Below, piece after piece: positions 1,357 to 56,331 of a DNA stretch of 64,000 nucleotides; the stretch's first letter is position 1; the number at the start of each line of letters is the position of its first letter. A program made the translations under genes and the position numbers. The stretch is taken from contig CM000436.1 of assembly GCA_000165345.1 (NCBI GenBank), positions 1,152,001-1,216,000 on the forward strand. The letters are read 5' to 3'. The notes beneath the pieces were generated by a model. It saw only the letters and a program-made list of their open reading frames with translations. It made no database searches and was not told the DNA's origin.

Positions 1357-1943
1357 TGTGGTTATGAATTTATGAATAATATTGCTGTGAAGGCGGGCTA
1401 AAAAGGGGGGAGTCAGGTATTTGTTCATTCAGAATAAATAAAAAAATGTATATAATATATATATATATATATTATATACATATGAATTGAAAATGATGGG
1501 TACCGTAAATAAATTTGTTGAACAAGTAATACAAAATTTGAATGTATTTATAGTTTAAAAAAGTTAGTATTAAATCATTAATTATTACACAAGTGAGAAC
1601 ATATATAAATATAAATATACTTGGAGATTTAATAATAATAAATTAATATTAAGAAAAGAAGAAGTATTTTGAATATAAAAAGTTCTCCTGTACAAGTACG
1701 AGCTCGAAGATATTTTTAATAAGCCTATTTTGTTTCAACTTTTTGTATTATTTGAAGTTCATGTAAAATAATTCTTGGATATATTTTTATATTACTTTTC
1801 ACTCAAATATTCAATTGGGAATCTATTAGCCTATATCTAATAGCACTCAATACAAATTTGCAATAAATTAAAAGTATAATGCAATTATAACATTAAATTA
1901 TTAAAGAATTATATTATAAAGATAATTAATAAAGGAGACAAAA

Positions 1944-2915: not shown

Positions 2916-3261
2916 TACCCCTGGCCTTATTATATTCAAAATGGCGGGAAAATGTGCATATAAGAGATATATAATATATATGCTTGTATATATTTAAAAT
3001 CAGGATAAGCAAGTTGTATAAGAATTATCACAACTCTTTGAATTGACTATAATAAGCCTATTCTACATCAGTAATTAAAAAAATGGATAATTCTAATTCA
3101 GGAATGAGAAAAGGAAATAACTTATTTAAAGGAAGATAATTAATTATAAAATATTAGAAATTGTTTAGCCTAGTAATTAAGATAATAATGTAAATGGCTA
3201 TATGATTCTTACATATTTTTGAGCTCTCTTTTTTATTGCTTTAATAATTTTCCTATGATGA

Positions 3262-10070: not shown

Positions 10071-13000
10071 TTATTTGGTTTGACTTTGTATTAAAACAAG
10101 GATTTTTATTTCGTTGAGTAAAGCAAAAAATGTTGAAATACTCAAGTAATTATTGATTGTAGAGGTAAATTGTTCAAATAGAAGCGAGTATATCTTCCAT
10201 TTTGCATTACAATTTGTAAGCCACTCAGAATTATTATTACTCTCACCAAATATACTAATAATACATGGATTAAAGTAAAATTGAGTGGAATTAAAATTTG
10301 AATTGCTTGAAATAGTCTGTTTCTTACTAAAGAGATTATAAAAAAATAAGTTATTTGGATCATTAATTACATCAATTTTCTTCCATTTACTAATATAGAA
10401 TTGTTGCTTTTCATTAATAATTTCCAATATATTATTATCCTTTTTATTACTAAAATTCAAATCTCCCTTATTTAAACCATTAGGATTAACCAATTCAACT
10501 TCCTCAAGAATAACAGATTCCAAAATTTCTTTTGATATAATTTCTTTTGGTAAGAATGAACCTAAATCAAGAAAAGAGTTAGGATTTTCAGAATTTACTG
10601 GAAGCTCCAACCATGTAGAATTCATTTCTCTCAAAAATTCTTCCGAATTCTCCAAAAGATTAATATCTTGTTCTTTAATATTCTTTTCTATTGATAGTCT
10701 TGGATAAAACTGTGATTGCCAAACCATCCACCAAGGAGGACTAGTAATAATAGAATCATCCAAATTCAAAGAATTTTGGTAAATATAATTAATAAATGCA
10801 ATATTAAATCCAAAATTACTTAAGTTATTCTTGAAAACTAAGTCATTTTGATCAAAATCCATATTTCCTTTAATTTCTGAAAACTTTTTAATCAACTTTG
10901 GTGCTTCAATTGAATAATCATTATTAGTATCATTTTTAATTGATTTAAAATTCTTAAAATAGTTTTCATTTATACCAAAATCAAAATCCTCGTCTTCATT
11001 AATTATTTCTTCATCTTCTTGTTCTATTTCATATTTTATTGGAGTAAAATATTCTTTCAAATATTTCAAATCTAAGATATTGTTATCACTAATCTCAGGT
11101 TTTATATCAAAATACTTTATTAAAGGATTAATCCTGCTTTTGAAGATACTATTAATTCTTGCTTGATCATAATATGTAAGACTTGTATTTATAACAAAGA
11201 CTTGTATTTCAGATGAATAAACCATTTTTCCAAATTTATTTTTGTAGCTATCAGTCTCATATGATTTATAATGAGAAATCAATGAGTAAATATGAAAAAT
11301 ATTGAATCTATAGAATCTGTCTTTGCTGTAAAACTTTTGTCGATTAACAAGTTTAACTAAAGTAAGATACTCAGAAAGAAGAGAATTAATGAATTGATTT
11401 TGCTTAGTTAAACCATTCCTTGTAGATTTATCATACCATGGAAGAAAAATCCCATTCTTATTAACCTTTTCATATTTTAATACAAATAATATATTTTGTA
11501 TAAATATTAAAACTTGTTCAATATCTAATACAAGCTTTTGTTTAGTAATTGGTTTTATTACATTAATCAATGGATATTCTTCTTTAAATAATGTTTTGTG
11601 AGATGAACTTAGTACTGTAAAGCCTTTGCTTAAATGATTAATCTTGAGTTTATATTTTGTACTTCCAAGAATTTGCCTTAAGCTGATTAAATTCTGTGAG
11701 AATTTAGATATCTTTTCATATCTAATATTAAAGAATTCTCCACTCTTTTGATTTCTATTTCTAGAAATAATAAAACTATTAGATTCCAAAATCTCATCAA
11801 TTACAATGATTTTACCAATTTGTTTAGGTTTAAGTACTTTATCTACCACTAAATCTGTGAATATATTACTAAAATACTTTTCAATCTGACCATTTAACAT
11901 AGGATCCAAAATATTTTCAACAAAATGTACTTTTTCTCTCAATTTTTCATTCAATATACTAATTTCCATATATTCCAATTCAAATCCTATACAATTGTGG
12001 AATACTAATCTATCACACCAATTATAACTTTTTATTAAATTTATCTCAGTTTTATCTCCACTATCTTCATCTTCTTTCTCATTTCTATTAAGAAATTTCC
12101 CAATTTTCCTTGTCCATTGTACCCTGTTTTGTAAGTCCCTGATAATACATTTTAATTCGCAAACAGGATAACCCCTTGCTAGCAAATTTTTTGAAACCTT
12201 TACTTTCTGATACTCTTCCTTACTATTATAATCTTCTTCCAATATTTCATAATCCTCATCATATTCATAACTATCTTTAATTTCATGGTTAGTACTTGAT
12301 TTTCTATTAAATTTATTGGGAGAAATATTATTATCAAGCTTGAAATTAATCTTTTGATTATATAAAATCTTTAATTCATTCAATAAAATCAACTCTTCAA
12401 AGTCAATAATTTCCATTGGAGACTCAATTTTAATAGTATAATTGTAATTACTCAACTTATTTTCTTTCATTTTCTTCTTTTTAACCAAATAATACCCATC
12501 GGAATATTTCATAAAATCTTCTGAGATGTATTTGTTTATTTCTTTCTGATCCAATTCTCTTATTAGTTTATGTTCTTGATCAATAATTCTATCCACTTTG
12601 AATTTGAATTCATATTCCTTTAAACCTTTATTCATTTTATTTAAATACTTATTTTTGACTATTTCTGTGAAACTAATTTTTAATCTATTAGTTCCAAGGC
12701 TGTCAAAATGTTCAAATCCTCCTTCAATCTCACTTATATAATGATAATAGTTATTATCCAGATTTGAACTTAGTATCATCTTATCAAAATAATCCTTCAA
12801 TTCAATACCCTCGTCTATTAAATCCTCCTCTTCCTCTTGTTTATCATTCTCTAACAATTTCATTAAATCAATGAGTCTTTCTGATCCACCTAAGCTATTC
12901 AAAACTTGGTTTTTGTGGATTTTTAATAAATTATTTGCTATATTAGTTTCAATAGAAGTATTACTTTCTTTTGTAAGTGTAAAATCATCGTCAATATAAA

Positions 13001-15062: not shown

Positions 15063-16880
15063 TTATTTCTTTCTTCTACTTCTAGAAGCAGGTCTTCTCG
15101 ATTTTTTCCTTGATTTGCGAATATTCTTACTTCTAACAGAAGTTGATTTATCTTTAGATTCACTCAGATTTTTATTATGATAATAGTTATAGTAATCATA
15201 ATTATTATTATCATTATTATTGTCATCACAATCATTGTTTTCATTATAATTATGGTCATTACAATTACCCATTAATTTAAAAAGAGACTTGTTTTTGTAG
15301 TAGATTCTTGCTCTTTGAAACTTATGAAAAGGATTCACTCCATCTTCAGTTTGGGGATTCATATATTTTGTGTGAAACATTTCATTAGTTTGATCTTCAT
15401 CCAAATCGCTAGCACTACTTTCACAGATACTATTAGAACGTTCACTTAGGCTAAAGTCTCTTTCAATACTCTTCGAAGCATTGCTCATTCTTTCTTTTCT
15501 TTGTTTTCTTCTTTTCGTCTTTCTTGAATTTCTTGTAATAACTGTAGAATCACATGATCTGCTTGTTGCTTTTCTGAGACTACTTACGCTTGCACGCTCT
15601 ACTATATCATAATCATCATCATCACTTTCCATATACTCTTCGAGATAGTCACTCTCGCAGAAACTATCTTCCTTGTAATATTTCACACGTTTACCTTCTT
15701 TTTCGTGATCTCTCTCATCTTTGTAGTCCACACCTTCTACTTCTTCCTCATTATCTTCTTCTTCCTCATTATCTTCTTCTTCCTCATTGTCTTCTTCTTC
15801 CTCATTATCATTGGCCTCTTCATTGCTTTCATAATCTTCCTGATCATTTTCATCTAAATAAAAGTACTGACTATTTCCTAAATTATGATATCCTGAAAAA
15901 TTTTCATTAAGTCTAGAATTATTAAACCTATTACAAAGTTGATAATTGTGTCCAGGATTTCCACAAAGAGCACAATAGGCCTTTTTAATTGCATTTTTGA
16001 AAGGAATTTCATTATTACAAATGATATGACCAAATCCAGAACAGTTATAACACTCAATATCTAAATCTGTAATTTTTTCTGTAGAATCATGATCTCCAAT
16101 AGCAAGTATACTTTCTTCATATCCTTTCTTAATACAAGGATGAATAGATATATTTTTTGACATCTCTAAGTTCAAATCTTGATTATTTTTATCATTATGA
16201 TTACTACAAACTGGCCTTCTGTAAGTTGAAAAGTCCAAACGTGAATTCAAATAATAGTTGCCTCCACTACATGAATCACATAATCTAATAGGATGGTCAG
16301 GATCTGTTTTCCAGGGACAGTCTTGCGGGTGATGAAATCTACTAGAACAAATTTGACATCTAGCTTTTCTACAATGTTCTTTTGGATGTATTTTAAGGCA
16401 TCTAATGCATATACTATTTTTTCTGGAATCTAATAATCTTTTTTGCTGAACAATTATTTCTTCAGGTATTTCATGAGGATCAATATCTTCATTTTTTGCA
16501 TCATTTTGAAAATTAGAGAAAAAGCGTAAATTATCGTTGTTTGTAGTTTCATTTTGCTTGATAGAGTCCAATTTTACATCCTCATAAGTATCCCATAACA
16601 TGCTTTCATAGTGCTTCATCCACTCAAAAGTCGATCTTTCTTGAATACTTTGATTATTATATACTCTATTTCCGCTGTATTTGTGTAAACCTCTCCTTTT
16701 CCATGAATTATTCTGGTAATAAGTATTGTCGTACCTATTATAAGAGGAATGCTCAGGTCTAGATTCTGAATAGTCATTTTGGTTATATCTTCTGGTTTTT
16801 CTACCCGAGTAATGCCAATTATTATTATTTGGTCTAATTTGATATCTAAAATTGTTATTCTCAAGCCTGTCTGCGTCCAT
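15063..16880 (-). CDS. CCHC zinc-knuckle protein with an acidic NEEEED repeat region and a basic Arg/Lys/Ser C-terminal tail
   Basis: 605-aa ORF with an ATG at 16880. Several CxxC...H...C knuckles are present (CIRCLKIHPKEHC, CQICSSRFHHPQDC, CYNCSGFGHIIC, CALCGNPGHNYQLC). The tail is RSKNIRKSRKKSRRPASRSRRKK. Confidence 0.7.
   Translation of the reverse strand: MDADRLENNNFRYQIRPNNNNWHYSGRKTRRYNQNDYSESRPEHSSYNRYDNTYYQNNSWKRRGLHKYSGNRVYNNQSIQERSTFEWMKHYESMLWDTYEDVKLDSIKQNETTNNDNLRFFSNFQNDAKNEDIDPHEIPEEIIVQQKRLLDSRKNSICIRCLKIHPKEHCRKARCQICSSRFHHPQDCPWKTDPDHPIRLCDSCSGGNYYLNSRLDFSTYRRPVCSNHNDKNNQDLNLEMSKNISIHPCIKKGYEESILAIGDHDSTEKITDLDIECYNCSGFGHIICNNEIPFKNAIKKAYCALCGNPGHNYQLCNRFNNSRLNENFSGYHNLGNSQYFYLDENDQEDYESNEEANDNEEEEDNEEEEDNEEEEDNEEEVEGVDYKDERDHEKEGKRVKYYKEDSFCESDYLEEYMESDDDDYDIVERASVSSLRKATSRSCDSTVITRNSRKTKRRKQRKERMSNASKSIERDFSLSERSNSICESSASDLDEDQTNEMFHTKYMNPQTEDGVNPFHKFQRARIYYKNKSLFKLMGNCNDHNYNENNDCDDNNNDNNNYDYYNYYHNKNLSESKDKSTSVRSKNIRKSRKKSRRPASRSRRKK
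15741..15812. repeat. 4 x 18-bp in-frame tandem repeat (cttcttcctcattatctt) encoding (NEEEED)n inside the zinc-knuckle gene
   Basis: Seen directly. The ORF on the opposite strand, 15590..15910, is a mirror artefact of this repeat. Confidence 0.8.
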
Positions 16881-19058: not shown

Positions 19059-19076
19059 TCTTTTTTTAGCATACGT

Positions 19077-19117
19077 GGGAAGGCGGGCTTTTCCCAACAT
19101 AGAATTGCATGCAAACT
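19077..19117. promoter_or_regulatory. GGGAAGGCGGGCTTTTCCC (near-palindromic E2F-like element) plus ATTGCATGCAAAC in the 160-bp spacer between two convergent 3' ends (SerRS and DHHC)
   Basis: Seen directly. The position is unexpected for a promoter element. See findings. Confidence 0.35.
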
Positions 19118-19219
19118 TAAATATATATAGGAAATATTCACAAAATTATAAATATGAACAATTAAGTTTGTGAAATTTAGAAAATCTATATTTTAACACT
19201 AGAATTTAATAAGTTATTT

Positions 19220-23986: not shown

Positions 23987-24068
23987 GGCAAAGTGCTCGA
24001 GTGGTTAAGAGGTCAGTCTCGAAAACTGATAGCGTTTCGCTGCGCAGGTTCGAATCCTGCCTTTGTCG
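23987..24068 (+). tRNA. tRNA-Ser(CGA): tRNA-Ser, anticodon CGA, 82 nt, intronless, long variable arm
   Basis: Folded by hand. Acceptor GGCAAAG/CTTTGTC (one G-U), 3-bp D-stem CTC/GAG. Anticodon stem TCAGT/ACTGA with loop CTCGAAA, giving anticodon CGA. 14-nt variable arm AGCG..CGC. T-arm GCAGG-TTCGAAT-CCTGC. Discriminator G. Confidence 0.9.
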
Positions 24069-31100: not shown

Positions 31101-34065
31101 TTTCTTACTTGTTTTAGTCATTTATAGCAAATTATGGTTGAATGGATCTATAGCAATCTATAATATAGCTAAGAAGAGATTAATGTTCTTTTCACCTTTT
31201 ATATCTGCTGTACCATCTATAATGGGTAACGTATTATCACAAACTGGTAATAAGGAGGAGATCATATACAGATTTCTTGAGAATGAGTTTGATCTTGGAA
31301 GACCAATAACCTCAATATGCACTCCAATTATTGAACCAAAATATTATATAGCAAAAGAAGGAGGAGGGATTTCAATTTCTTCCACATTTTCTCTGAATCC
31401 TAGTGGATTAAGTACTTCCAGCCAAGGAGGTAATGATTCGAACTTTACACAAAGCTCTAATTCTTATTTGATTTCTTGTGAACTTATTAAGATGGAAGAA
31501 GAAGATAGCAAAGAGGGTAATAGTGAAATGATACTGGTTGCTTCAGTTTCACAGAAGCCAATCCTGGTTTATAGGCTTGATCTTAGAAATAATAACTCAA
31601 ATATTTCTAGATCAGGAGATTTCATCTTCTCTAGGAAATGGAAGCTGGAAATACAGACAAACTTTAATCATGTACAGATGGATATTACAAGATTCTTTGC
31701 TCAGTTTCCAAACACCATATCAAGTTCCAATATCCAAGAAACATTTTCAATTGAATCACCATTATCTATTTATAATTGTGGTCATGGTATTTCATTTAAT
31801 TCAAAGATCTCAAATAATGTGGATACCTGGATAATTCAGCCACCATCTCCCTTAGATATAGAATTCAGACAAGAAATAATGAGTGATGAAAGAAAGGTAT
31901 GCGAAATGGGGGATATCTCGTCTTATTCTCCATCTTCTCTTGTTATTATGACAGACAAAGGAAGATTTTCAGTGGTAAGCTTGTACGAGACGAGAACATC
32001 CAATTGTATAGCCAAGATAGATTCTCCGTGGTCTCCTATACATATACTTTTAACAACGAGTATTGAGAATGAAATAAACTTTGAATTTTTAAATCTTGCA
32101 AATACTTCATCAGATCCAAAATTCTGTAACTCTTTATGCACTTTGCCATTTCCAGGTAATGATAATTGGTTACTCAGAAGAGCCTTCCTTCCAGAAGTGG
32201 TGGTCCAAAGAGTGGCATTTTGCAAAGAGTATGGTCTTATTGCCATTATTGTTGGAATTCCTGATAATGCAAAGCACCATTTAAATGGGTATCATATTCG
32301 TCAAATGGCTTTCTATAGATATCTAAGATGTCTAGAAGCTGGAGGAAAAGAAGCTCAAACTATCTTACTTAACCAAGATCTCATTAGAAACCCCGACAAG
32401 TGCTTTGAAAAGTCTTTAGCAAGTATTCCAGATTTAGATATTCCTCCTGCAAATTTCGACTCAGAAACATATTTTGACACTCTTCCTCCTGGGATAGAAA
32501 TTGGAGAATCTCTTCCTAAAATATTCTATCAGTCTAATATGATAAACGAAAAAGCCAGAAAATTAGGGTTTTCTAACCAATCTTCCACATGCAGTCATTC
32601 CGAGACAGAAAATGGGGCGCCCAACGGTGCATGCAATGGTTTTGAGCGGGAACAATTCGGAATATTAATGGACCCAAATATAATGCGTAACGAGTTATTA
32701 ATATATTCATTTGAAGATTTATTTCCACATTTAAGACCATCAGTGCCACTTTCAGGGCAAAGCCTTGATAGTTTTCCGAAGCCAAAAGGAAGATATGCTT
32801 TTGGAGCTTGGGAGGTGGGTCTGAGTATGAAGTTTGGACAAGATTCCAAAGGCCAGCAAGTTTTAATTATTGGTACAGGCACAAACCCAACTCATTACTA
32901 TGAAGCAGAGGGAAGGCTACTGATGTTTAAAGTAAAGCAATTGGTTTCTGTAAATGAGGAAGATGGGAATATTGTAGGAGGAACAACAGGAAATGGAACA
33001 GAAGTTGAAAGTAAAAGAGAAGTAGTAGTAGGAACAACAGGAGTTCGAGTAAATAATACAAAATGGACAAATATGTTAAAATATTGGCCATCCAGATTTT
33101 CAAAGCAGCTATATCATGATAATGTACAAGAGTTGGATATTTGTTTTCAAAGTATGTATAGGGGTCCTGTAACAAGTGTTGATCTAATTAACCTACCAGC
33201 AACAACAGCTCCAATTGCACCAGCAATACCAGCTTTAGCAGCTTATCCAATAATACAGAATAATTCTATTGTCAGAGCTCCAAATTCTAATGTTACCTAC
33301 ATTGCTCATACATTTGGATATAGACTTTATATACATGAACTAAGAGAAAATAACGAGGGGAACTTTACTAAAGGAACTTTTATGGATACTCCTTTAGGTA
33401 TTAGTTCAGTTTCTAATTATAAAGCTTTATTTTTCTTGGGAGACATAAGAAGAGGAATTCATTTTGGAATGCTTAGAACTGATGCTTCCAGAGGATCTCA
33501 AACAATGGTTAAATTTGCTAGATCTCATCCTCTTTGGAAATTTACATGTACATCTGCTCAAGCTATTGTTCAAGATAAAGATCTTGCAATTCTAGTATCT
33601 GACAACAATAATAATCTATTTACTTTTGAACCTAACTTTAATGCAACGCAAATAATTGACAAGGAAACACTTAAACCAACATCACATACAAGCCTTTCTA
33701 CATCCTTCGTACATATGAGAACTGTGGAATCAGATAATTATCGTTATGTCATTGCTAGTGGAAGAAATGGTTCCTTCTTCTCTATAAAGCTCACAAATAA
33801 ATTACAACACGAACATCTTTCACATGTTGAGAAATTACTCTGTTGCAATATTCCTTCATTTTTAGGAATATCTCCTAATTCCTCTCTGCCTATTAATCCA
33901 AATCTTACCAGCATCCCACAATTCATTCAAAATCTATATCCTACTGATAAAATCATATTTCTTAAACATCTAAATTACCTTAAATACTTATCTGATCCAA
34001 TCTTACAATCCATTTTCAAAAACACAAATATATCACTTTCGCGCATTCACCAATTTATAGTTTGA
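28168..34065 (+). CDS. CPSF-A/DDB1/SF3B3-family triple beta-propeller protein, most like CPSF160 (CPSF1); oversized at 1965 aa
   Basis: ATG start. The N-terminus MTAVFDTYCSSERPEFSVFGHFVG...IELYEV parallels CPSF1 MYAVYK..PTGLEFSMYCNFFN...LYVYRL. The C-terminal region (FFLGDIRRGIHFGMLRTD...LAILVSDNNNNLFTFEP...LKHLNYLKYLSDPILQSIF) has the CPSF_A character. Long Asn/Ser-rich insertions are present. Confidence 0.6.
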   Translation: MTAVFDTYCSSERPEFSVFGHFVGRRDEQDSRLNLSLVKSNRIELYEVNKDKKIRFIASSILLQTPVACTTLKGHNGMPDYIVLLFAHWEIMIYRYSNQYGELELVSKDQIEIGDFARGASLKFSRVIEADDNIKLEQILIGAKPNCDDLVLMITSPKYLLFITYRLKANRNEFNKELSLGVCWGILVETDIYMDTIVDSCQILDENSNLCLQPKIAILTRIGPISTGSIQSHSNCVSLIYLTINMELTEFTVLDKLELLPMDSYKLIPFDTRRNTNICLSGGVMVLSRNSIILHGGINRPFTLITTNDSYDKVPEKKLEVDLCAQKVHGFKAKTFGFDTGIVNVDGNSTSTTSNDNSEFLNTISTDNSNSNLDLRTLLTNLQPILINQPELSIEFQISYSVPFLITNEYYGILLFNQIQPYLIGLVLQLSTDRTNGIKGFHWFKVNEYWDWSRNYLSCRNDSVLYLETTTHTKKLGSETILDEHYLITGTPIFRVQNARFVQNKNDSYNCQSLLLIGNNDSNSGISILDFTFNKKFTVPFIKNISSTQDPQLSYNAIVKLINSKEAQSRISDEKNKKIKRNQVDSDSVNLIQPYSETYLSSSNLEDLERFYIYSDIPIKEYCNESEENVGILRDIKIRDYLDLGPNSLRDFCIIPSSYENWNIELDDEKRHKKYPVDENHSILSTNGTYPIGQLSLYEKSVSKSLITKFSLDDILFHWTLNDPITSKTKYLVFTSDPLKSIGKTYFFSLDTCINSSQETFIIGDVNQLDPSEGEFDYEADSNTVGVGVIKMGNAYEDIFVIQVLPSTINVLDFGIKTRLVELDLISTLFSDNPDAPLAIKSFIMGNLIIILFEDSTIKVLKILKSNPDKDQDHKIGTEYINSLNSLKIINEFLRYQIIIENMDDLFEELNNLFEINQLVIKQRVMEGETSQLFEDEPLETTSIEERNPDQLWKNKFWIRHVSPVITNSDRNLKDSEDFLLVLVIYSKLWLNGSIAIYNIAKKRLMFFSPFISAVPSIMGNVLSQTGNKEEIIYRFLENEFDLGRPITSICTPIIEPKYYIAKEGGGISISSTFSLNPSGLSTSSQGGNDSNFTQSSNSYLISCELIKMEEEDSKEGNSEMILVASVSQKPILVYRLDLRNNNSNISRSGDFIFSRKWKLEIQTNFNHVQMDITRFFAQFPNTISSSNIQETFSIESPLSIYNCGHGISFNSKISNNVDTWIIQPPSPLDIEFRQEIMSDERKVCEMGDISSYSPSSLVIMTDKGRFSVVSLYETRTSNCIAKIDSPWSPIHILLTTSIENEINFEFLNLANTSSDPKFCNSLCTLPFPGNDNWLLRRAFLPEVVVQRVAFCKEYGLIAIIVGIPDNAKHHLNGYHIRQMAFYRYLRCLEAGGKEAQTILLNQDLIRNPDKCFEKSLASIPDLDIPPANFDSETYFDTLPPGIEIGESLPKIFYQSNMINEKARKLGFSNQSSTCSHSETENGAPNGACNGFEREQFGILMDPNIMRNELLIYSFEDLFPHLRPSVPLSGQSLDSFPKPKGRYAFGAWEVGLSMKFGQDSKGQQVLIIGTGTNPTHYYEAEGRLLMFKVKQLVSVNEEDGNIVGGTTGNGTEVESKREVVVGTTGVRVNNTKWTNMLKYWPSRFSKQLYHDNVQELDICFQSMYRGPVTSVDLINLPATTAPIAPAIPALAAYPIIQNNSIVRAPNSNVTYIAHTFGYRLYIHELRENNEGNFTKGTFMDTPLGISSVSNYKALFFLGDIRRGIHFGMLRTDASRGSQTMVKFARSHPLWKFTCTSAQAIVQDKDLAILVSDNNNNLFTFEPNFNATQIIDKETLKPTSHTSLSTSFVHMRTVESDNYRYVIASGRNGSFFSIKLTNKLQHEHLSHVEKLLCCNIPSFLGISPNSSLPINPNLTSIPQFIQNLYPTDKIIFLKHLNYLKYLSDPILQSIFKNTNISLSRIHQFIV

Positions 34066-37400: not shown

Positions 37401-39810
37401 TACAGCTTACGAAGATGAAAATTTATCAAATTCTTCACGTATACCTTCAGAAGTTAAATGGCTTGTTGATCTTTCAGAAATTTGGAATGAGCATCCTGTA
37501 GAAATTTTATTAATCAATATATGTATTGAATTCTGTATATTTCTTATATTACAAAAAGATTGGAAATTATATAAATTAACAGTATATTACCAACCAAGTG
37601 AAAATATATTAAATAAAAAATGTGAATTTAAACTTGAACCAATTAACAAATCATGTATTGAATTTGATGAGAATTTGTTTTATTATAATAATTCAAATAT
37701 CATAAAATTTGGATATATGGAATTTTGTTCAAATAATAAAGGGATTAAAAAATCCTTTGAATCTTTAGAAATTACTTCTTCCTTAAATAAAGCTCAGTCA
37801 AAATGCAGAATGAATCCAAATATCTCAAATTTTGATAATATTTTGAAAGATGCATTAAATTTACTTGAAAATGAATATAATAAATCAGCTGAAAATGATA
37901 TATTTGAATTTTTAAAAAACGATGATCTCAGAAAGTTTATAAATAATTGTTTGAATCAAAATATAAATATAATTTCAGATAAGCTTCCATTATACTGGGA
38001 AAATATTGAAGAATTAGTCATTTCTGGTATTATTTGGTACTTAACAGAATCTCAAGAAATATTTTTGCTTCCATTAATTGATGAAATGAGTTATAAAGAA
38101 AACCAAAAGTGCTTACAACTTAATCCAATACTTGTACAATCATTTCAAACAAAAATTAATCATACTCAAATTGTGAATTTTTTTCCTGGTCTTGCTTCAT
38201 TTTTACTTTTGGAAACATATCCAAACAAAAAAAGAATTAATAATGAATTTAATTCTGAATCAAATATTAGTAAAAGCCTTAGTTCTTTAGTTAATGAGTC
38301 GAGAATTATATTAACAATATGTCAAAGCTTATCTCCAGTTTTACAAGATTTGATTAACATTCCAAATAAATTTTTGAGATCCAAGATTATAAGAGAATTT
38401 TTATTTCCAATCACGAGTTATATTAAATTTTACCCTTTAGAGAATATACTTAAAATTCTGATAAATATTTTTGAAAATATGATTTTCTCCACTTTAAAAG
38501 ATTCATGTAAAGAGTATAAAAAAATTTTGAATGAGATGATTGAGAAAATGGTATCATTTTCCAAGCAAAATGATCTTATAAATAAAAATGTTACTGATGA
38601 ACTTATTAATAATTATTTGAAAGAAATCTTTTATATTGTTGGACCAAATATGAATATATGCAACGAAAGTTGTTGTGACCATAACAAAGATTCTAGTATC
38701 ATTGAGTTAATTCAATCAAAAATTATAAAATCTTCACCGAAAATACAAGAAATGATACAATTAATGGAAATAATTGAAGAATCTCTCGATATAGTACATA
38801 TAAATATATCTTCAATGGAATCATTATCTCAAATTGGAAGTAATAGTACAGAATCAAATATATTTACTTTTCTTGTTATTTCAATAATCAGAAAGATTGA
38901 TCCAGTAATTGTTCCATGTATAATTTTTCCAATAATTGGTCGAAATCCAAATAATCTTTTTCAAGAATGCATTAGGAATAAAAATTTTTCAAATGCAATG
39001 CTTTACCTAACAGTTTTACAATCTTTTCTTGGACCATATTATGTTAGATATGAACATTCTCTTTTATTACTACATAATATTTTATCAAATACAAATATTA
39101 CCAATTATTATCAACTTTTTTCTATGGCAAGTCAAACCATTAAATTCATCTTTATTATTTTCAAACCAAATAATTTATCTATAAATACGCCATTATCTAA
39201 AATTACTGAGCCAGTTTCAATTGTTGGAATAAATAATTGCAATAATTTAGAATTGGATTGTCTTGTTTTTTTAAATAAAATAGATAGTATACTTGAATTC
39301 CATTTTTTATCTAAACTTATACAAATTGAATGGTTGTATATAATTATTATGTGCAAAAGTTTGGGAATGAACTTTAATTCTTGGTTCACACATTGTTTGC
39401 AAAAATACTTTCCATTATGGTTTAGTGACGAGGATTTGGATTCTTTTTCTTATTTAAAATCTACTAACTTTGTTAATTTGGTTATCTCAGTCCAACATAA
39501 ATTTAACCTTTTTAATATAGAAGAAAATTCTATTTGTCTTTTTGATGAAACATTCCAACAAAATTCATCATCCAAAGTATTGAATAATATTAACCATAAT
39601 TTTCTTTCAAATATTCACAAAAATAATTCAGAAATTTTTTCTCAACATTTTTCTATACAAAAGAACTTTATTGTTATTCAAGTAATTAAACAATTTTTTA
39701 AAGCATTTTTATCCAATTCTTTCCCTTTACCGGCATTAGCTATTGCATATGCATGCAATGACGTGTATTCTGTCCACAAAGTTCTGCATGACTTTCCAAA
39801 TATTAAATAA
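34486..39810 (+). CDS. RIC1-like protein (Rab6 GEF subunit homolog) with an N-terminal WD/beta-propeller region; 1774 aa
   Basis: ATG start. The segment NHNWPINMAYVNKSGNYILVSGYRGCAIYDLINSRWRLFCD aligns with the RIC1 block [38 protein letters not shown]. The N-terminal NLEWSNNSKLLILGSSSYQHVFVFRL resembles RIC1 [24 protein letters not shown]. A 7-codon uORF (34462..34485) abuts the main ATG. Confidence 0.55.
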   Translation: MIIPLVNNVRTYDGFVNGEIIGSKISPCENYLAIITKDSLQIVSNRHNRILISRFILNNNNKEKIDETFSGNLEWSNNSKLLILGSSSYQHVFVFRLHLHSPLEISNENGYLSESESNFEDSSNESNEFDDNDVDDNNNNKDNNENKYQTNKQENFFIISDSVSKVNNNERFVFITEELENGLINIPSVNVPDEIFDSFQEDLLSFQLISEYGTLTEKNEKSNIETEIEFSTSYAKLDLIGMINVFYKFDSFLLIFDQNINEYVLLFSLNEFPILILITISNSSFKIRRNIFLTDLISLKGIGDEFKNNFQTCSFSSLDPIYNFDLNKRNFFSGYLDLSIINKEIKLENLERLKISSQIQENIKELSTSANSYYQNGLSLMETLINNSNKDFDFSLQNKPNFLGFGIRNLEYNEIHDWLTLIVKPINSLLLFSWNSPLTLNGNHKDYDQSKNIQRSPFGFIIKPSGILRSKILNRYRRIVTICDESFELTEEIGIEFELCNDYIDNESTYNFDDNNNKSINDSEINISNSFNQKELFIRILSFEEMIFIQPENNHKTAENNIIFDKPKINCIFSLKLSEMISNMSLFSKVPYMSVTNSDMYITITLEEYGIFIIDSLSGKIYFKINKDISKIQNSIIFKHAIIISNDFSMLYQVKIKTNDNDQERLYLIELPIYKLVETRSSFCRLSNNDQSLPSCENLVFLGIESIGILQCNYRNFQLDFDLESNNFNDLKESNKIEKDSIKELSFKNEHFSYNYDNNIKNNQRITPDSSGIISSCVEFQTDLVLKSIPIPPSIYINHNWPINMAYVNKSGNYILVSGYRGCAIYDLINSRWRLFCDLNHELLLCKPNLPFGWINEWVFFLSVDSSLLLNTFHDLITSNDDLWEISAFEKNKLYETYIRSLNRKLKSRNIQNQINKNDESCIVFFDIRNSLDIRNIIGIIPFCSSNPLLVVNSISKPEDDLFILYTDDFVLTAYEDENLSNSSRIPSEVKWLVDLSEIWNEHPVEILLINICIEFCIFLILQKDWKLYKLTVYYQPSENILNKKCEFKLEPINKSCIEFDENLFYYNNSNIIKFGYMEFCSNNKGIKKSFESLEITSSLNKAQSKCRMNPNISNFDNILKDALNLLENEYNKSAENDIFEFLKNDDLRKFINNCLNQNINIISDKLPLYWENIEELVISGIIWYLTESQEIFLLPLIDEMSYKENQKCLQLNPILVQSFQTKINHTQIVNFFPGLASFLLLETYPNKKRINNEFNSESNISKSLSSLVNESRIILTICQSLSPVLQDLINIPNKFLRSKIIREFLFPITSYIKFYPLENILKILINIFENMIFSTLKDSCKEYKKILNEMIEKMVSFSKQNDLINKNVTDELINNYLKEIFYIVGPNMNICNESCCDHNKDSSIIELIQSKIIKSSPKIQEMIQLMEIIEESLDIVHINISSMESLSQIGSNSTESNIFTFLVISIIRKIDPVIVPCIIFPIIGRNPNNLFQECIRNKNFSNAMLYLTVLQSFLGPYYVRYEHSLLLLHNILSNTNITNYYQLFSMASQTIKFIFIIFKPNNLSINTPLSKITEPVSIVGINNCNNLELDCLVFLNKIDSILEFHFLSKLIQIEWLYIIIMCKSLGMNFNSWFTHCLQKYFPLWFSDEDLDSFSYLKSTNFVNLVISVQHKFNLFNIEENSICLFDETFQQNSSSKVLNNINHNFLSNIHKNNSEIFSQHFSIQKNFIVIQVIKQFFKAFLSNSFPLPALAIAYACNDVYSVHKVLHDFPNIK

Positions 39811-40231
39811 AATTTGCATGCAATTACATAGTTTCAAATACGTTTATATATTTTATTTAATTTTTTTTTTCAGTATGAAATTACTTTTAATATTTATAAA
39901 AAAAAATAAATTTGTTTGAAAGGAGAAGTTTATTATATTTACATTTTTCTCTTTTCACAACCCCATATTTTTTTTTATTTTATTTGAATAGACAATAAGT
40001 TTTATTTATTTTCAGTTAATAAATTAATATTACTAAATATTTTTATCTTTACTGTTTTAATCTATTCCATTCTTTTTCTCTAAATATAAAATAAAATTTC
40101 TTTTATTATCAGTATCTTTCTTTTTATTTGCTTTATTGTTTAATATTTGCTCACACAATTCTTCTGCTAGTAGAATGCATTTGAAAAAAAAAAAAAATCA
40201 TTCATGACATTTTGTTATTAAAAATTTTATC

Positions 40232-40251
40232 GGCCGCCTGACTTTGGCGGG
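40232..40251. promoter_or_regulatory. GGCCGCCTGACTTTGGCGGG E2F-like pair about 210 bp upstream of the 40460 gene
   Basis: Seen directly. Confidence 0.45.
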
Positions 40252-40459
40252 TATGTTTGTAATTATAATTTAATTTGAGGGAATATAAATATTAATATAA
40301 TTGGATAAATAATAAAATTTATTATTGTATAAGGACCAAAAAATAAAGTAAAGTATAAATAGGTTATAAAATCTTAAAGGTGGTCTTTGAGCACTGGTAT
40401 TACAATATAGTCTATTGATATAATTAGTGAAAAGAAAAAGTAATTCATTTGGTTAAAAT

Positions 40460-40726
40460 ATGGAAAATAGTTACAAGATGGGAGTTAAAAATATTGTATT
40501 GTTATTTGCCACATTTCTATTAAGTGTTTTAGCAGAAGATCAAAAGGATGGAGAAATTTTAGCAGTAACTCCAAGAGATTTAAATTTGACTCCTTTTAAT
40601 TTATCAGCTTTAATTTTAGTTTCTTTTTTTACTATGTTGATTATTTTTATTGTTGGATTAACTATTGATACTGATACTCCAACTAGATTTGAAGAGAAGA
40701 TGCCACCTATTATGAAGGAATATTAA
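40460..40726 (+). CDS. small type I membrane protein: signal peptide, a short N-glycosylated ectodomain, one TM helix and a short cytoplasmic tail
   Basis: 88-aa ORF. MGVKNIVLLFATFLLSVLA is the signal peptide, NLT and NLS are sequons, LILVSFFTMLIIFIVGLTI is the TM helix, and the tail ends ...IMKEY. It lies tail-to-tail with the V-ATPase c'' gene. Confidence 0.4.
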   Translation: MENSYKMGVKNIVLLFATFLLSVLAEDQKDGEILAVTPRDLNLTPFNLSALILVSFFTMLIIFIVGLTIDTDTPTRFEEKMPPIMKEY

Positions 40727-41222
40727 GATATTATTTAACTTGGTTATATAAGAAAAAAATAATAAGTATAATTCAGCTCAATAATTTATTTTAATATTAC
40801 TTCAAGTAATATTATCATTTCTAAAATCAAAATCATTATAAATACTATAATTATTCTTTTTAGCAAATATTATTTTTGTTTTCTTTAAAAATTACATAAT
40901 AATTTTTTCTAAGATTTTTATTTAATAAAGAAATTCTTTATTTCTTTACTTAATATTAATACTCAATAATTTTAGCACTATTAATACATATTTTTCTTCA
41001 AAAAAAGTTTTTTTATTTTAGAATTTTCCTTTTTGCTTTTATTTATTAAGAAAAAGTTAATAATTTACTTCAAATTTAAAGAACAATAATGAAATGAAGG
41101 AATATTAAAAGAAAAAAAAAAAAGTCAATTGAATCAATATAAAAAGTTACAACTAATAATAAAAATGTTAACAATCATTAGTGATTGCTAAATATTAAAT
41201 AAAAATCATCAAAATAAAACAT

Positions 41223-41768
41223 TTATTTTGAAGGGAAGTCAGCAAGCGAAAGTTGATAAAAACCAACAATCATTCCAAATAAACCCAAAGCACCGGCAAA
41301 AATTTCAACAACCAACATCTTAGAAAATAATTCTCCTCTTTGAGCATCAGCAAGAGCTGTTGAACTACCAGTAATTCCAACACTAATACCAGAAAATAAA
41401 TTTGATAAACCAATTGTTAGTCCAGAACAGAGCAAAATCCATGAAGATTTGACTATCTGTACCTCCCAAGCATCCTTTGGTTGACCAGAAATTATATCAA
41501 TATCCGGAAGTGATCTTATTTTAGACATTAATAAAAATGTTGCAATTACACCATAAATTGCAGTAGCTTCACAAAAAATTACTGAAATCAAATTCTTTGA
41601 ACGAATTCTTGGAGATCTAAGAGCTGCTCCAACTAAAGAATTACCAGTTGTGAAAATACCCCAGCCTGCTCCAAATGTTGAAAGAACTATGCATAATACT
41701 ACTCCAAGATATGCAAAATGTAATGGAGGAATTGATAAGAAAATCTCTGAATATGTTTGATATGCCAT
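41223..41768 (-). CDS. VMA16: V-type H+-ATPase 21-kDa proteolipid subunit c'' (ATP6V0B/Vma16)
   Basis: 181-aa ORF with an ATG at 41768. GAGWGIFTTGNSLVGAALRSPRIRSKNLISVIFCEATAIYGVI matches c'' GAAWGIyITGSSiIGgGVKAPRIKtKNLvSIIFCEAVAIYGiI. The essential Glu lies in VVEIFAGALGLFGMIVG. Confidence 0.85.
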   Translation of the reverse strand: MAYQTYSEIFLSIPPLHFAYLGVVLCIVLSTFGAGWGIFTTGNSLVGAALRSPRIRSKNLISVIFCEATAIYGVIATFLLMSKIRSLPDIDIISGQPKDAWEVQIVKSSWILLCSGLTIGLSNLFSGISVGITGSSTALADAQRGELFSKMLVVEIFAGALGLFGMIVGFYQLSLADFPSK

Positions 41769-42161
41769 CTTATCTCTTAAAATTTACCACTATAATATAA
41801 TACAATATAATATATATTTTTATATTTATTTATAAAAAAAAATAAGATAATGTTTTGATTAGTTTCACAATCTTGTCTATTAATTACTATTATTTTCAAT
41901 ATAAATTTTTAATCTTGAAGTATAATCAAGATATTCGTGGTCCTTGAAAATTAATATGGAAAGCTAATCAATTCTGCTTATTAATTTACTTAATCTCCTC
42001 TTAATTTAATTGAGAAACTTTAAGTTAAATTATTTTCTTTTTTTTTTTCCTTTTTGCTCCCAATCTTATTTTAATTAATTCAGTAATGGCTTCACTAATA
42101 TTTATTTAGTTTATCCATTACATTAATTTATTCCTATATTATAATCAATGCAAACACAAAG

Positions 42162-42182
42162 TTCCCGCCTGATTTTCCCGCC
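42162..42182. promoter_or_regulatory. TTCCCGCCTGATTTTCCCGCC double E2F-like site upstream of the V-ATPase c'' gene
   Basis: Seen directly. Confidence 0.45.
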
Positions 42183-42467
42183 ATTGTCTAATAATTGTCA
42201 TTTATTTAATAGTTGATTGTGAAGTGTTAAAAAAAGTTGTTTTAATTAAAATAAATTCATAATTTTCACACAGTACAAACACTACTCTTAAAGTTCGATT
42301 TTTAGTTTCTCACTATTAGTTATTTATATAATTGTACCTAAACTCTTAAACTATTAGAGTTTGAATATCTAGATAAGCTGTCTCTTTAAGAAATTATCAA
42401 GTTTAAGGAAAATGAGATCTAAAGTATATGTTAATATCAATTATATCTTTAATTATATAATTTGAGG

Positions 42468-42590
42468 CTGCTACTACTACTACAAATACTACCAATACTA
42501 CCACTTATACTGCCATAAATACTAGAACTAATACTACTAATACCACTGCAAAGCCAACAAGCATTATTACCACCATTACTACTTTAATAC
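42468..42590. repeat. degenerate ACT/TAC/ACC trinucleotide-rich tract (a stop-free Thr/Asn-rich frame with no ATG)
   Basis: Seen directly. It is compositionally similar to the 54937..55140 tract. Confidence 0.6.
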
Positions 42591-43341
42591 CTCTAATAAT
42601 ACAATAATATTGCGATTTTAACATTGCTCGTACTTTTTTCTCTTTCCTCTCTTTGAACTCAATATCAATTCTCAGTTTTTATTTTTGTATCAGATTCGTT
42701 TGAGATTATTCAAGAACTATATATATACGATATTTTGAAAGTGGAAGAAAAAAGAAAAGTGGATCATGCATATTACATTCAAATATATAACTAGGAACTA
42801 GTAGGAAGTGAATGAAGAAAATAGATTTAGTTAAATGAAGAGAGAAAAAAAGAACAAAATAGGAAATATGCCTGTTAGATATTATATTCACTAAATCTTT
42901 CATATATTTCAATAATTAACAACATAATATCTTACATTTAATAATATTAAAAATATAGATAAGCATGTATATATATATATATTCATCTACTTATTTACAA
43001 TTTATTATCTATTTAAATATTAGTAATTATTATCATTCGAAATTATGTCATTTAATAATTACATATTAATGCATGCATTAATATTGTTGCCACCAACTTA
43101 ACTATTATAGTTTCATCAGATAACATTACATAATTCAATATTGAAAATCTATTTAAAAAATAAATAATTAAAACCAAATTTAAATAAATTTTTAATAACT
43201 TATTCAATATTAAATTCTCTCATTATCACTAATCATTTTATTATTTTACCCCAAATCAATTAATATTTAATTATTCAACCCCACCTTATATGGCGCTTAC
43301 CAGAACCCCTCCTATAATATAAATTTTTAACTGCTCGTGAC

Positions 43342-43360
43342 TTTGGGAAGGCGCCAAAAT
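43342..43360. promoter_or_regulatory. TTTGGGAAGGCGCCAAAAT E2F-like site (also TGGCGCTTACC at 43291..43301) about 900 bp upstream of the RING-CH/FHA gene
   Basis: Seen directly. Confidence 0.4.
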
Positions 43361-43860
43361 CTGAACACACAAATTAGAAAATATTTTTATTTAATATAAT
43401 GAAAGGCATTTAAGAATTCCCCCTCTCGGAGAATAATAGCAAAAGCTAGAAATATCAAAATCTGTGATAGAAGAGCTTTGTAATTAGTGAATAGGATAAG
43501 AGCTTATGAGATAAGCAAAGGAGTTAGGAACACGACTTTTGTATGTACAAAGCCTGGAGAATTTGAATAAAAAAGCCGGGCAAGGAATTATCTGAATGTT
43601 AAATTAAAGTTCTTAAAAATATATATATTTTGCTAATAAAGGAAAGGGAAGGAAAAAAGGAAGCTAGGTAGAGTAATTTGTATTAAAAAAAAAATTAAGA
43701 GAAAATAACTATCAAGAAGATAATATTGATACAAAATCTCTAGTTGGTTTCCATAAAACTTCCAATTCAAAGTTTAAGTAAACTCTGATAGGTAAATAGA
43801 AGTAAATATATTTATGTATTTTGATTGTAAAAGTCAAAGTTTGAGTGATTGGTATAATTG

Positions 43861-43940
43861 AGAGTGAGAGAGAGAGAGAGAGAGAGAGTGAGTGAGTGAG
43901 AAAGAGAGATAAATAGAAAGAGTGTGAGAGTGAAGGAAGG
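43861..43940. repeat. (GA)n / GAGTGA purine-rich microsatellite (G-box-like)
   Basis: Seen directly: agagtgagagagagagagagagagagtgagtgagtgagaaagagagataaatagaaagagtgtgagagtgaaggaagg. Confidence 0.85.
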
Positions 43941-55140: not shown

Positions 55141-55209
55141 ATTTAAGTTTATATGAATGTTGTAATAATCAATTGGTTCTAAATCAAAATGGTGAAAAAC
55201 TAATGTATA

Positions 55210-56243: not shown

Positions 56244-56286
<43 letters not shown>

Positions 56287-56304
56287 AAATATTGTATTAA
56301 TTTT

Positions 56305-56331
56305 TTTGGCGGGAAAAGAATTTGCATGCAA
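56305..56331. promoter_or_regulatory. TTTGGCGGGAAAAGAATTTGCATGCAA, a canonical E2F site plus GCATGC, about 190 bp 3' of the NCoR-like gene stop
   Basis: Seen directly. No annotated gene lies downstream within 1.8 kb. See findings. Confidence 0.35.

What the first reader, a model, noticed from the sequence alone, without database searches (positions are those of the whole stretch)
19077..19117. E2F-like / GCATGC elements sitting between convergent 3' gene ends
Three strong elements are not upstream of any called gene. GGGAAGGCGGGCTTTTCCC + ATTGCATGCAAAC lies in the 160-bp spacer between the SerRS stop (19058) and the DHHC stop (19220). TGGCGGGAAAA at 2942..2952 lies between the ELO stop and the THOC3-like stop. 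TTTGGCGGGAAAAGAATTTGCATGCAA at 56305..56331 is 190 bp 3' of the NCoR-like gene, and AATTTGCATGCAATT at 39811..39825 abuts the RIC1-like stop. The 11-mer GAAGGCGGGCT at 19079 recurs at 1389. These may drive antisense or ncRNA transcription, act as 3' boundary or termination elements, or reveal unannotated small genes.
Basis: seen in the sequence. Interest (0 to 1): 0.5.

Follow-up and report, generated by a model that had tools for sequence, protein, structure and literature searches.

The report
Orphan promoter-like motifs between convergent genes
In this Cryptosporidium parvum chromosome 8 segment, known promoter motifs (E2F-type and TGCATGCA) lie between the tail ends of convergent genes, where no promoter is expected; the one at 19077-19117 is conserved in related species and most likely starts an unannotated antisense or non-coding transcript, a phenomenon already reported genome-wide.

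Summary
The window is C. parvum Iowa II chromosome 8, roughly cgd8_4630 to cgd8_4840. The motifs are far above chance: GGCGGGAAA 5 observed against 0.04 expected, TGCATGCA 11 against 0.38, and E2F cores in convergent spacers 3 against 0.05.

They are the known Cryptosporidium E2F/DP and ApiAP2 'AP2_1' promoter motifs. In the window, 26 of 32 E2F cores lie in promoter-bearing spacers, 3 in convergent spacers and 3 in 45 kb of coding sequence.

The SerRS|DHHC module (GGCGGGCTTTT, 18 bases, TGCATGCA) is conserved with its spacing in C. ubiquitum. Its E2F half is kept in C. canis. It is lost in C. felis.

Site 4 (39811-39825) is not in a convergent spacer, because a conserved 88-aa gene lies downstream.

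There is no sign of a special 3' motif class. Motif density in convergent spacers is about half that of promoter spacers, and 11 convergent spacers in C. bovis, C. ryanae and C. muris hold none.

Li et al. 2021 already showed that these two motifs head the list upstream of antisense lncRNAs that begin near 3' gene ends. Their catalogue has no lncRNA at any of these sites.

Best reading: orphan promoter modules for unannotated antisense or non-coding transcription. This is inferred, not shown. Interest is modest.

The parts
19079..19093 (.). E2F/DP-type site GAAGGCGGGCTTTTC (core GGCGGG at 19082-19087), 24 bp after the SerRS stop
   Evidence: AGGCGGGCTT occurs once per locus at the same place in three C. 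parvum assemblies, C. ubiquitum and C. canis, and nowhere else in the 19 loci.
19106..19113 (.). ApiAP2 'AP2_1' palindrome TGCATGCA, 18 bases after the E2F core
   Evidence: Conserved in C. ubiquitum with nearly the same spacing (17 bases).
19073..19078 (.). ACGTGG block next to the E2F core, conserved in C. ubiquitum (ACGTGGGrAGGCGGGCTTTT)
   Evidence: ACGTG often lies next to E2F/AP2 sites in the window. Its significance was not tested.
19148..19159 (.). TATAAATATGAA block, also present in the otherwise unalignable GC-rich C. canis spacer; either a TATA-like element or a poly(A)-signal-like element
   Evidence: Pairwise alignments. The role is inferred only.
19059..19219 (.). 161-bp convergent spacer between SerRS (+, inferred cgd8_4720 / CPATCC_0004940) and the DHHC palmitoyltransferase (-, inferred cgd8_4730 / CPATCC_0004950)
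2942..2962 (.). Site 2: TGGCGGGAAAA followed by a degenerate AP2 half, TGCATATA (2955-2962), 28 bp after the ELO stop in the 346-bp ELO|THOC3-like convergent spacer
   Evidence: The chipmunk genotype I orthologue reads GGCGTGAAATTGTGCATGCA, with the E2F half broken and the AP2 half intact.
56305..56331 (.). Site 3: TTTGGCGGGAAAA, 5 bases, then TGCATGCA; the only such motifs in the 1991-bp gene-free Kazal|Myb/NCoR-like convergent spacer, 189 bp from the stop of the latter gene
   Evidence: Identical in three C. parvum assemblies. No orthologue could be fetched because the C. ubiquitum contig ends first.
39750..39825 (.). Site 4: motif cluster spanning the RIC1 stop (TGCATGCA 39750, GACGTGT, TGTCCACA, TGCATG, TGCATGCA 39815). 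It lies in a tandem spacer, 645 bp upstream of the 88-aa gene at 40460-40726.
   Evidence: In C. ubiquitum the last site reads TGCATGTA and falls inside the CDS.
1389..1399 (.). Second copy of GAAGGCGGGCT: an ordinary E2F-type site in the SNF2|ELO divergent promoter spacer
   Evidence: Not conserved in chipmunk genotype I.

Best explanation
The element at 19077-19117 is a compact cis-regulatory module made of an E2F/DP-type site (GGCGGGCTTTT) and an ApiAP2 AP2_1 site (TGCATGCA). These are the two commonest Cryptosporidium promoter motifs. Here the module sits in a 161-bp tail-to-tail spacer that contains no annotated 5' end.

Proposed mechanism. The E2F/DP heterodimer and an AP2_1-binding ApiAP2 factor occupy the site. 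They hold open a nucleosome-free patch and recruit RNA polymerase II. Transcription then starts within about 50-150 bp and runs antisense into the 3' end of DHHC, or of SerRS, or both. The product is a natural antisense or non-coding RNA of the kind already catalogued in C. parvum. Sites 2 and 3 are the same kind of orphan module. Site 3 may instead drive an intergenic ncRNA in its 2-kb gene-free spacer. Site 4 is more simply a distal part of the promoter region of the downstream 88-aa gene.

Shown here: motif identity, non-randomness, position relative to genes, and evolutionary conservation of site 1. Inferred: factor binding, and any transcription from these sites.
For: 1. Motif identity and behaviour.
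- E2F cores (SSCGCC) occur 32 times. 26 are in divergent or tandem spacers, typically 100-400 bp upstream of an ATG, and only 3 are in 45 kb of CDS.
- 15 of 19 promoter-bearing spacers carry at least one core.
- These are the published E2F and AP2_1 motifs (PMC3734150; PMC12246861).

2. Selection.
- 26 of 37 intergenic motif sites are conserved as a class in C. ubiquitum or chipmunk genotype I, against 19% for random 6-mers.
- Both site-1 motifs are conserved with their spacing in C. ubiquitum, where the spacer as a whole is about 65% identical.
- AAGGCGGGCTT is kept at the same position in C. canis, whose spacer is otherwise unalignable (45% GC, about 45% identity).

3. Precedent.
- C. parvum antisense lncRNAs start near the 3' end of the sense CDS, and E2F/DP1 and ApiAP2_1 are the top two motifs within 100 bp upstream of them (PMC7840661).
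- One of those lncRNAs, Cp_lnc_38, lies in this window. It starts about 80 bp from the conserved E2F site at 9846 and runs antisense into the 3' end of the neighbouring gene.
- ATAC-seq peaks in sporozoites are dominated by E2F motifs (bioRxiv 10.1101/2025.01.17.633476).

4. Alternatives excluded for site 1.
- No Rfam family or tRNA.
- No room for an ORF.
- The GGGAA/TTCCC inverted repeat is neither thermodynamically unusual nor conserved.
Against: - No transcript evidence could be obtained. The 396-lncRNA catalogue of Li et al. 2021 has nothing antisense to SerRS or DHHC (CPATCC_0004940/50), nor at sites 2-4.
- The run of GenBank locus tags in the IOWA-ATCC annotation leaves no extra feature between DHHC and the Kazal gene.
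- Site 1 is lost in C. felis.
- The E2F half of site 2 is broken in chipmunk genotype I.
- Convergent spacers in C. bovis, C. ryanae and C. muris have no such motifs.
- The direction of any transcript is unknown. Motif orientation shows no consistent relation to gene direction in the window (read from the hits).
- The spacer is so short that both 3' UTRs probably cover the module.
Confidence: 0.5

Rival explanations
1. Factor-bound 3' boundary or roadblock. E2F/DP and/or AP2 proteins bound between convergent genes stop read-through polymerases or position a nucleosome-free gap. This would limit collision and interference in a genome with very short spacers, without producing a stable transcript.
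For: - Sites 1 and 2 lie 24 and 28 bp after a stop codon, in spacers of 161 and 346 bp.
- Site 1 is conserved.
- No lncRNA is catalogued there.
- Roadblock termination by general regulatory factors is established in budding yeast (my own knowledge, not checked here).
Against: - Most convergent spacers have no such motif. That includes the shortest ones (1 and 100 bp here) and all 11 in C. bovis, C. ryanae and C. muris.
- It therefore cannot be a general requirement.
- No such role is known for E2F or ApiAP2 factors in Cryptosporidium.
Confidence: 0.13
2. Relic of a promoter. The motifs are left over from a promoter orphaned by rearrangement or gene loss, are decaying slowly, and now have little or no function.
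For: - The 3' flank of SerRS is a synteny breakpoint. The next gene is DHHC(-) in the C. parvum clade, alpha-amylase(+) in C. bovis and C. ryanae, where the spacer carries TGCATGCA repeats as a normal promoter, and TRAM/LAG1(-) in C. muris.
- Site 3 lies at the edge of a 2-kb gene-free, low-complexity stretch that contains Thr-codon repeats resembling a decayed mucin-like gene.
- The module is lost in C. felis, and site 2 shows turnover between its two halves.
Against: - An exact 10-11-mer retained in C. parvum, C. ubiquitum and C. canis, inside a spacer that is otherwise saturated with changes and has shifted from 26% to 45% GC, argues for selection.
- Motif sites as a class are conserved 70% of the time against a 19% background.
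Confidence: 0.14
3. Distal regulatory element of an annotated gene. The module acts at a distance or from the 3' side on SerRS, DHHC or another neighbour. For site 4, it is simply an upstream element of the 88-aa gene.
For: - Site 4 lies 645 bp upstream of a real, conserved small gene that has its own conserved E2F pair at about -215.
- Distances in this genome are short enough for any spacer to be close to several promoters.
Against: - For sites 1-3 the nearest annotated 5' ends are 1.4-7 kb away, across whole genes.
- Other E2F cores in the window lie 100-400 bp from an ATG.
- No enhancer-type regulation has been described in Cryptosporidium in the papers read.
Confidence: 0.13
4. RNA-level 3'-UTR element, or a small unannotated gene or structured RNA in the spacers.
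For: - The module probably lies inside the SerRS and/or DHHC 3' UTR.
- The ELO|THOC3-like spacer is fairly well conserved overall (73-78% with chipmunk genotype I).
Against: - The hairpin is not significant (z -1.1 and -2.0) and is not conserved.
- Rfam finds nothing.
- There are no credible ORFs.
- The conserved parts are exactly the DNA-binding motifs that are also conserved in ordinary promoters.
- The conservation of the ELO|THOC3-like spacer is the same as that of other spacers.
Confidence: 0.05

Closest known systems
Promoter motifs upstream of C. parvum antisense lncRNAs (Li, Baptista, Sateriale, Striepen & Kissinger 2021, PMC7840661)
   Same: - The same two motifs (E2F/DP1 TTSSCGCCWAA and ApiAP2_1 ANTTGCATGYA).
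- The same genomic setting, at the 3' ends of protein-coding genes in a very compact genome.
- Co-occurrence of both motifs was reported upstream of 17 lncRNAs.
   Different: - No lncRNA is catalogued at these four sites.
- The paper explains many cases by bidirectional promoters shared with an upstream mRNA. That cannot apply to convergent spacers, which contain no mRNA promoter.
Cryptosporidium E2F/DP binding motif in mRNA promoters and open chromatin (Oberstaller et al. 2013, PMC3734150; Xiao et al. 2025 preprint, 10.1101/2025.01.17.633476)
   Same: - A G+C core SSCGCC with T/A-rich flanks.
- Strongly enriched in non-coding DNA and conserved between species.
   Different: - The described sites are upstream of genes or inside polycistron spacers.
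- These sites lie where both neighbours end.
ApiAP2 AP2_1 site TGCATGCA (reported bound by the cgd2_3490 / PF14_0633 AP2 domains, as cited in PMC3734150)
   Same: Exact palindromic 8-mer at sites 1, 3 and 4.
   Different: - Site 2 has only TGCATATA in C. parvum.
- AP2 motifs were reported absent from sporozoite ATAC-seq peaks, so any activity may be stage-specific.
Roadblock termination by general regulatory factors such as Reb1 and Rap1 in budding yeast (my own knowledge)
   Same: A sequence-specific DNA-binding site placed just downstream of a gene in a compact genome.
   Different: - No evidence for such a function here.
- Most convergent spacers lack the motif.

Membership tests
E2F/DP binding site (Cryptosporidium E2F motif) | 6-bp G+C core of the type [C/G]GCGC[G/C] or GGCGGG | tested here: met
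   GGCGGG at 19082, 2943 and 56308.
E2F/DP binding site (Cryptosporidium E2F motif) | T-rich and A-rich flanks (TTTSSCGC / GCGSSAAA) | tested here: met
   Sites 2 and 3 are the full TGGCGGGAAAA and TTTGGCGGGAAAA. Site 1 has the weaker flanks GAAGGCGGGCTTTT.
E2F/DP binding site (Cryptosporidium E2F motif) | Enriched in non-coding relative to coding DNA, and conserved between species | tested here: met
   29 of 32 cores lie in 19 kb of spacers and 3 in 45 kb of CDS. 70% class conservation against a 19% background.
E2F/DP binding site (Cryptosporidium E2F motif) | Bound by E2F/DP proteins | not testable with these tools
   Needs ChIP, CUT&RUN, EMSA or protein-binding microarrays.
ApiAP2 AP2_1 site | Palindromic core TGCATGCA | tested here: met
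   19106-19113, 56323-56330 and 39815-39822. Site 2 has only TGCATATA in C. parvum and TGCATGCA in chipmunk genotype I.
lncRNA promoter class of Li et al. 2021 | Motif within 100 bp upstream of the 5' end of a catalogued lncRNA | tested here: not met
   No catalogued lncRNA has a sense gene between CPATCC_0004933 and 0005203, and none is antisense to ELO or the THOC3-like gene. The ID mapping was verified with Cp_lnc_366, the upstream motifs of Cp_lnc_38, and orf88 = CPATCC_0005030. The newer CpBGF set of 766 lncRNAs could not be consulted.
lncRNA promoter class of Li et al. 2021 | Drives a transcript antisense to a neighbouring gene, starting near its 3' end | not testable with these tools
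   No RNA-seq, Iso-Seq or start-site data are accessible here.
Hairpin or terminator-like structure | A stable stem-loop that is conserved | tested here: not met
   z -1.07 on the + strand and -2.01 on the - strand. The right arm is absent in C. ubiquitum (z -0.13) and C. canis (z +0.70).
Known structured ncRNA (Rfam) | Match to a covariance model | tested here: not met
   Only tRNA-Ser at 23987-24068 in the whole window. Nothing at E <= 1 in 54400-56600 or 39700-41300.

The most novel reading that the evidence does not exclude
A subset of convergent gene pairs in the intestinal Cryptosporidium clade carries conserved E2F+AP2 composite modules that are not promoters. Instead they act as factor-bound separators, either roadblocks or nucleosome-free insulators, that keep convergent transcription units apart in spacers as short as 160 bp. 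In this roughly 72-kb region, composite modules under a relaxed definition are found in 4 of 8 convergent spacers against 3 of 19 promoter-bearing spacers. That difference is not significant (Fisher p = 0.15).
Probability: 0.1. Interest if true: 0.6.

Novelty: new member of a known kind. Interest (0 to 1): 0.3.

Why it matters
Gene regulation in Cryptosporidium is poorly understood, and almost none of its cis-elements have been tested experimentally.

A 161-bp spacer that holds one conserved E2F site and one conserved AP2 site, with no mRNA promoter nearby, is an unusually clean test case. It can show whether these motifs are enough to start transcription, in which direction, and at which stage. 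It can also show whether antisense transcription of a housekeeping pair (SerRS and a DHHC palmitoyltransferase) is regulated.

If transcripts are found, the result adds instances to a published pattern. It would also show that antisense RNAs can arise from dedicated promoters, not only from bidirectional mRNA promoters.

If no transcripts are found although the sites are occupied, that would point to a boundary function not yet described in this parasite.

Tried and rejected
1. Looking for the transcripts in published data.
- Six sequence probes flanking sites 1 and 2 found nothing in the lncRNA FASTA of Li et al. 2021. That file is truncated in the held copy.
- Cp_lnc_67, antisense to a palmitoyltransferase, turned out to belong to a different gene outside the window.
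- The S4 table, once mapped to the window, lists only Cp_lnc_38 and Cp_lnc_366 here.
- Supplements of the sRNA paper and of the ATAC-seq/polycistron preprint are not held.
- Bankier et al. 2003 is not held.

2. Hairpin or terminator reading of GGGAAG...CTTTTCCC: rejected.

3. Small genes or structured RNAs in the spacers: rejected.

4. A composite E2F+AP2 module as a signature specific to convergent spacers: suggestive counts, but not significant.

5. Orthologue of site 3: the C. ubiquitum contig ends inside the Kazal gene.

6. MAFFT alignment of the C. canis spacer was misleading. It was replaced by anchored pairwise alignments.

7. Motif orientation relative to gene direction showed no consistent rule, so it gives no clue to the direction of transcription (read).

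Full report
**Source and gene map**

The window is Cryptosporidium parvum chromosome 8. The SerRS, DHHC, ELO and other proteins are identical to C. parvum Iowa II entries (EAK89605.1 and others). They lie on 1.33-1.38 Mb chromosome records.

I built the gene map from ORFs, Pfam and the genes called in GenBank assemblies. The order is:
- SNF2/PHD(-)
- ELO(+)
- THOC3-like WD40(-)
- PolD4(-)
- two hypothetical genes
- Brix(-)
- a 1023-aa hypothetical(-)
- a kinase(-)
- a 605-aa hypothetical(-)
- SerRS(+)
- DHHC(-)
- PPTase(+)
- a 95-aa ORF(+)
- tRNA-Ser
- DEAD helicase(-)
- PRMT(+)
- DDB1/CPSF_A-like(+)
- RIC1-like(+)
- an 88-aa TM protein(+)
- V-ATPase proteolipid(-)
- RINGv/FHA(+)
- FCP1-like phosphatase(+)
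- a 113-aa ORF(+)
- TAF9-like(-)
- a Kazal/mucin-like protein(+)
- a 2409-aa Myb-domain 'NCoR-like' protein(-)

Legacy IDs run from about cgd8_4630 to cgd8_4840. The other IDs are interpolated. cgd8_4840 is listed as a Myb-domain protein in a review table.

**The observation**

The motifs are far above chance.

| Pattern | Observed | Expected |
|---|---|---|
| GGCGGGAAA | 5 | 0.04 |
| TGCATGCA | 11 | 0.38 |
| GGCGGG, up to 30 bases, TGCATGCA | 2 (sites 1 and 3) | 0.00 |
| E2F cores in simulated convergent spacers | 3 | 0.05 |

One correction is needed. The spacer after the RIC1-like gene is not convergent. An 88-aa transmembrane protein gene (40460-40726 +, cpbgf_8004783) follows it. Its C-terminus is invariant in C. 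ubiquitum.

**What the motifs are**

They are the two best-known Cryptosporidium promoter motifs:
- the E2F/DP site;
- the ApiAP2 'AP2_1' site TGCATGCA (PMC3734150; PMC12246861).

A scan for the E2F core SSCGCC gives 32 hits.

| Class | Hits | Density per kb |
|---|---|---|
| Divergent spacers | 13 | 1.56 |
| Tandem spacers | 13 | 1.77 |
| Convergent spacers | 3 | 0.89 |
| CDS (45 kb) | 3 | 0.07 |

15 of 19 promoter-bearing spacers carry at least one core, usually 100-400 bp upstream of the ATG, against 3 of 8 convergent spacers.

So the flagged elements are ordinary promoter motifs in places where no annotated promoter exists. They are not enriched there relative to other spacers.

**Conservation**

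I fetched the orthologous SerRS regions of C. canis, C. bovis, C. ryanae, C. muris, C. ubiquitum and C. felis.

The SerRS|DHHC convergent arrangement exists only in the C. parvum, C. ubiquitum, C. felis and C. canis group.
- C. ubiquitum keeps ACGTGGGrAGGCGGGCTTTT, then 17 bases, then TGCATGCA. The spacer as a whole is about 65% identical.
- C. canis has a spacer of 45% GC that is otherwise unalignable. It keeps AAGGCGGGCTT 14 bases after the stop.
- C. felis has lost the core.
- AGGCGGGCTT occurs once per locus, always at this spot, in C. parvum (three assemblies), C. ubiquitum and C. canis, and nowhere else in the 19 loci.

As a yardstick, 26 of 37 intergenic motif sites of C. parvum are conserved as a class in C. 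ubiquitum or chipmunk genotype I. The figure for random 6-mers is 19%. Site 1 therefore behaves like a functional promoter motif.

Site 2 is different. Its E2F half is broken in chipmunk genotype I (GGCGTG). The adjacent degenerate AP2 half of C. parvum (TGCATATA) is an intact TGCATGCA there. This looks like turnover within a composite module.

Site 3 could not be compared, because the C. ubiquitum contig ends before it.

**Is there a 3' class?**

The eight loci from other species hold 25 convergent spacers. E2F cores occur only in two of them:
- SerRS|DHHC;
- the PPTase|DEAD spacer, which in fact contains a small ORF and a tRNA gene.

C. bovis, C. ryanae and C. muris have none in 11 convergent spacers.

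In the roughly 72 kb of C. parvum that I hold, 4 of 8 convergent spacers carry an E2F+AP2 composite under a relaxed definition. This includes NUDIX|SNF2 just left of the window. The figure for promoter-bearing spacers is 3 of 19, but the difference is not significant (p = 0.15).

**Transcripts**

Li et al. 2021 report 396 lncRNAs.
- 92% are antisense.
- They start near the 3' end of the sense CDS.
- E2F/DP1 and ApiAP2_1 are the top two motifs within 100 bp upstream of them.

I mapped their table to the window in three ways:
- Cp_lnc_366 is at 15651-15853 on the + strand.
- The listed upstream motifs of Cp_lnc_38 are at 9846 and 9901.
- orf88 is CPATCC_0005030.

Hence SerRS = CPATCC_0004940 and DHHC = 0004950.

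The catalogue has no lncRNA between 0004933 and 0005203, and none on ELO or the THOC3-like gene. The run of GenBank locus tags in the IOWA-ATCC annotation (CPATCC_004343, 004344, 004351, 004353, 004355, 004358) leaves no extra feature between DHHC and the Kazal gene.

Transcription from these sites is therefore neither shown nor excluded.

**Alternatives examined**

- The inverted repeat GGGAAG..CTTTTCCC is not an unusual hairpin and is not conserved.
- Rfam and ARAGORN find only tRNA-Ser at 23987-24068.
- The spacers hold no credible ORFs.
- The 3' flank of SerRS is a synteny breakpoint with three different neighbours in three lineages. In C. bovis and C. ryanae the spacer is a normal promoter with TGCATGCA repeats. 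This keeps a 'relic promoter' reading alive, although conservation as far as C. canis argues against simple decay.
- A roadblock or boundary role cannot be tested here. It cannot be general, since most convergent spacers lack the motif.

**Verdict**

The most likely reading (about 0.5) is that sites 1-3 are orphan promoter modules of the known E2F/AP2 type that drive antisense or non-coding transcripts not yet annotated. Site 4 belongs to the upstream region of a small annotated gene.

The finding adds new instances to a published phenomenon. The clean, conserved 161-bp SerRS|DHHC spacer is a good experimental test case, but it is not a new kind of element.

Noticed in passing
window 32616-32636: The composite GGCGCC, 7 bases, TGCATGCA lies inside the DDB1/CPSF_A-like CDS. 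One of only 3 E2F cores and one of only 2 GCATGC sites in 45 kb of coding sequence coincide here. This may be an intragenic promoter.
   Followed up: no
window 19059 onward; L013, L014 and L015 at about 11372-11800: There is a synteny breakpoint immediately 3' of SerRS. The next gene is DHHC(-) in C. parvum, C. ubiquitum, C. felis and C. canis, alpha-amylase(+) in C. bovis and C. ryanae, and TRAM/LAG1(-) in C. muris.
   Followed up: partly
window 54529-56519: This is an unusually long (1991 bp), gene-free convergent spacer with 21% GC. It contains an (ATT)n microsatellite (56245-56285), a run of Thr-codon (ACT)n repeats (about 54925-55010) and several N bases. Rfam finds nothing and there is no credible ORF.
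   Followed up: partly
window 5390, 7518, 19073, 39761, 47691/47711, 56351: ACGTG lies within about 10-40 bp of E2F or AP2 sites at several modules. At site 1 it is conserved in C. ubiquitum. It may be a third partner motif; only a crude density count was made.
   Followed up: partly
window 39750-39825: A dense motif cluster occupies the last 61 bp of the RIC1-like CDS (39750-39810) and the 15 bp after its stop: TGCATGCA, GACGTGT, TGTCCACA (motif 5 of Li et al. 2021), TGCATG and TGCATGCA. It is largely conserved in C. ubiquitum.
   Followed up: partly
L009 1090-1681 (about 6.4-7.0 kb left of the window start): The NUDIX(+)|SNF2(-) convergent spacer carries GTGCGTGCATGCATGATGGCGCT, an AP2 site next to a near-E2F site. 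Chipmunk genotype I has GCATGCATGC in the same spacer.
   Followed up: partly
window about 9930 onward (+) and 15651-15853 (+): Two published lncRNAs map here. Cp_lnc_38 is antisense to the 1023-aa hypothetical gene and shares the conserved E2F site at 9846 with the Brix promoter. Cp_lnc_366 lies inside the 605-aa hypothetical gene.
   Followed up: yes
window 40460-40726 (+): A small 88-aa transmembrane protein gene (cpbgf_8004783 / CPATCC_0005030) has a C-terminal TPTRFEEKMPPIMKEY that is invariant in C. ubiquitum. It has no Pfam family on record in the fetched loci.
   Followed up: partly
window 41769-44275: The divergent spacer between the V-ATPase proteolipid gene and the RINGv/FHA gene is long (2.5 kb). 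It holds E2F cores at 42164, 42177 and 43350 and a GCATGC at 43071. It may hold an unannotated transcript.
   Followed up: no
window 23987-24068 (+): A tRNA-Ser (anticodon CGA) lies between the 95-aa ORF and the DEAD-box helicase gene.
   Followed up: yes
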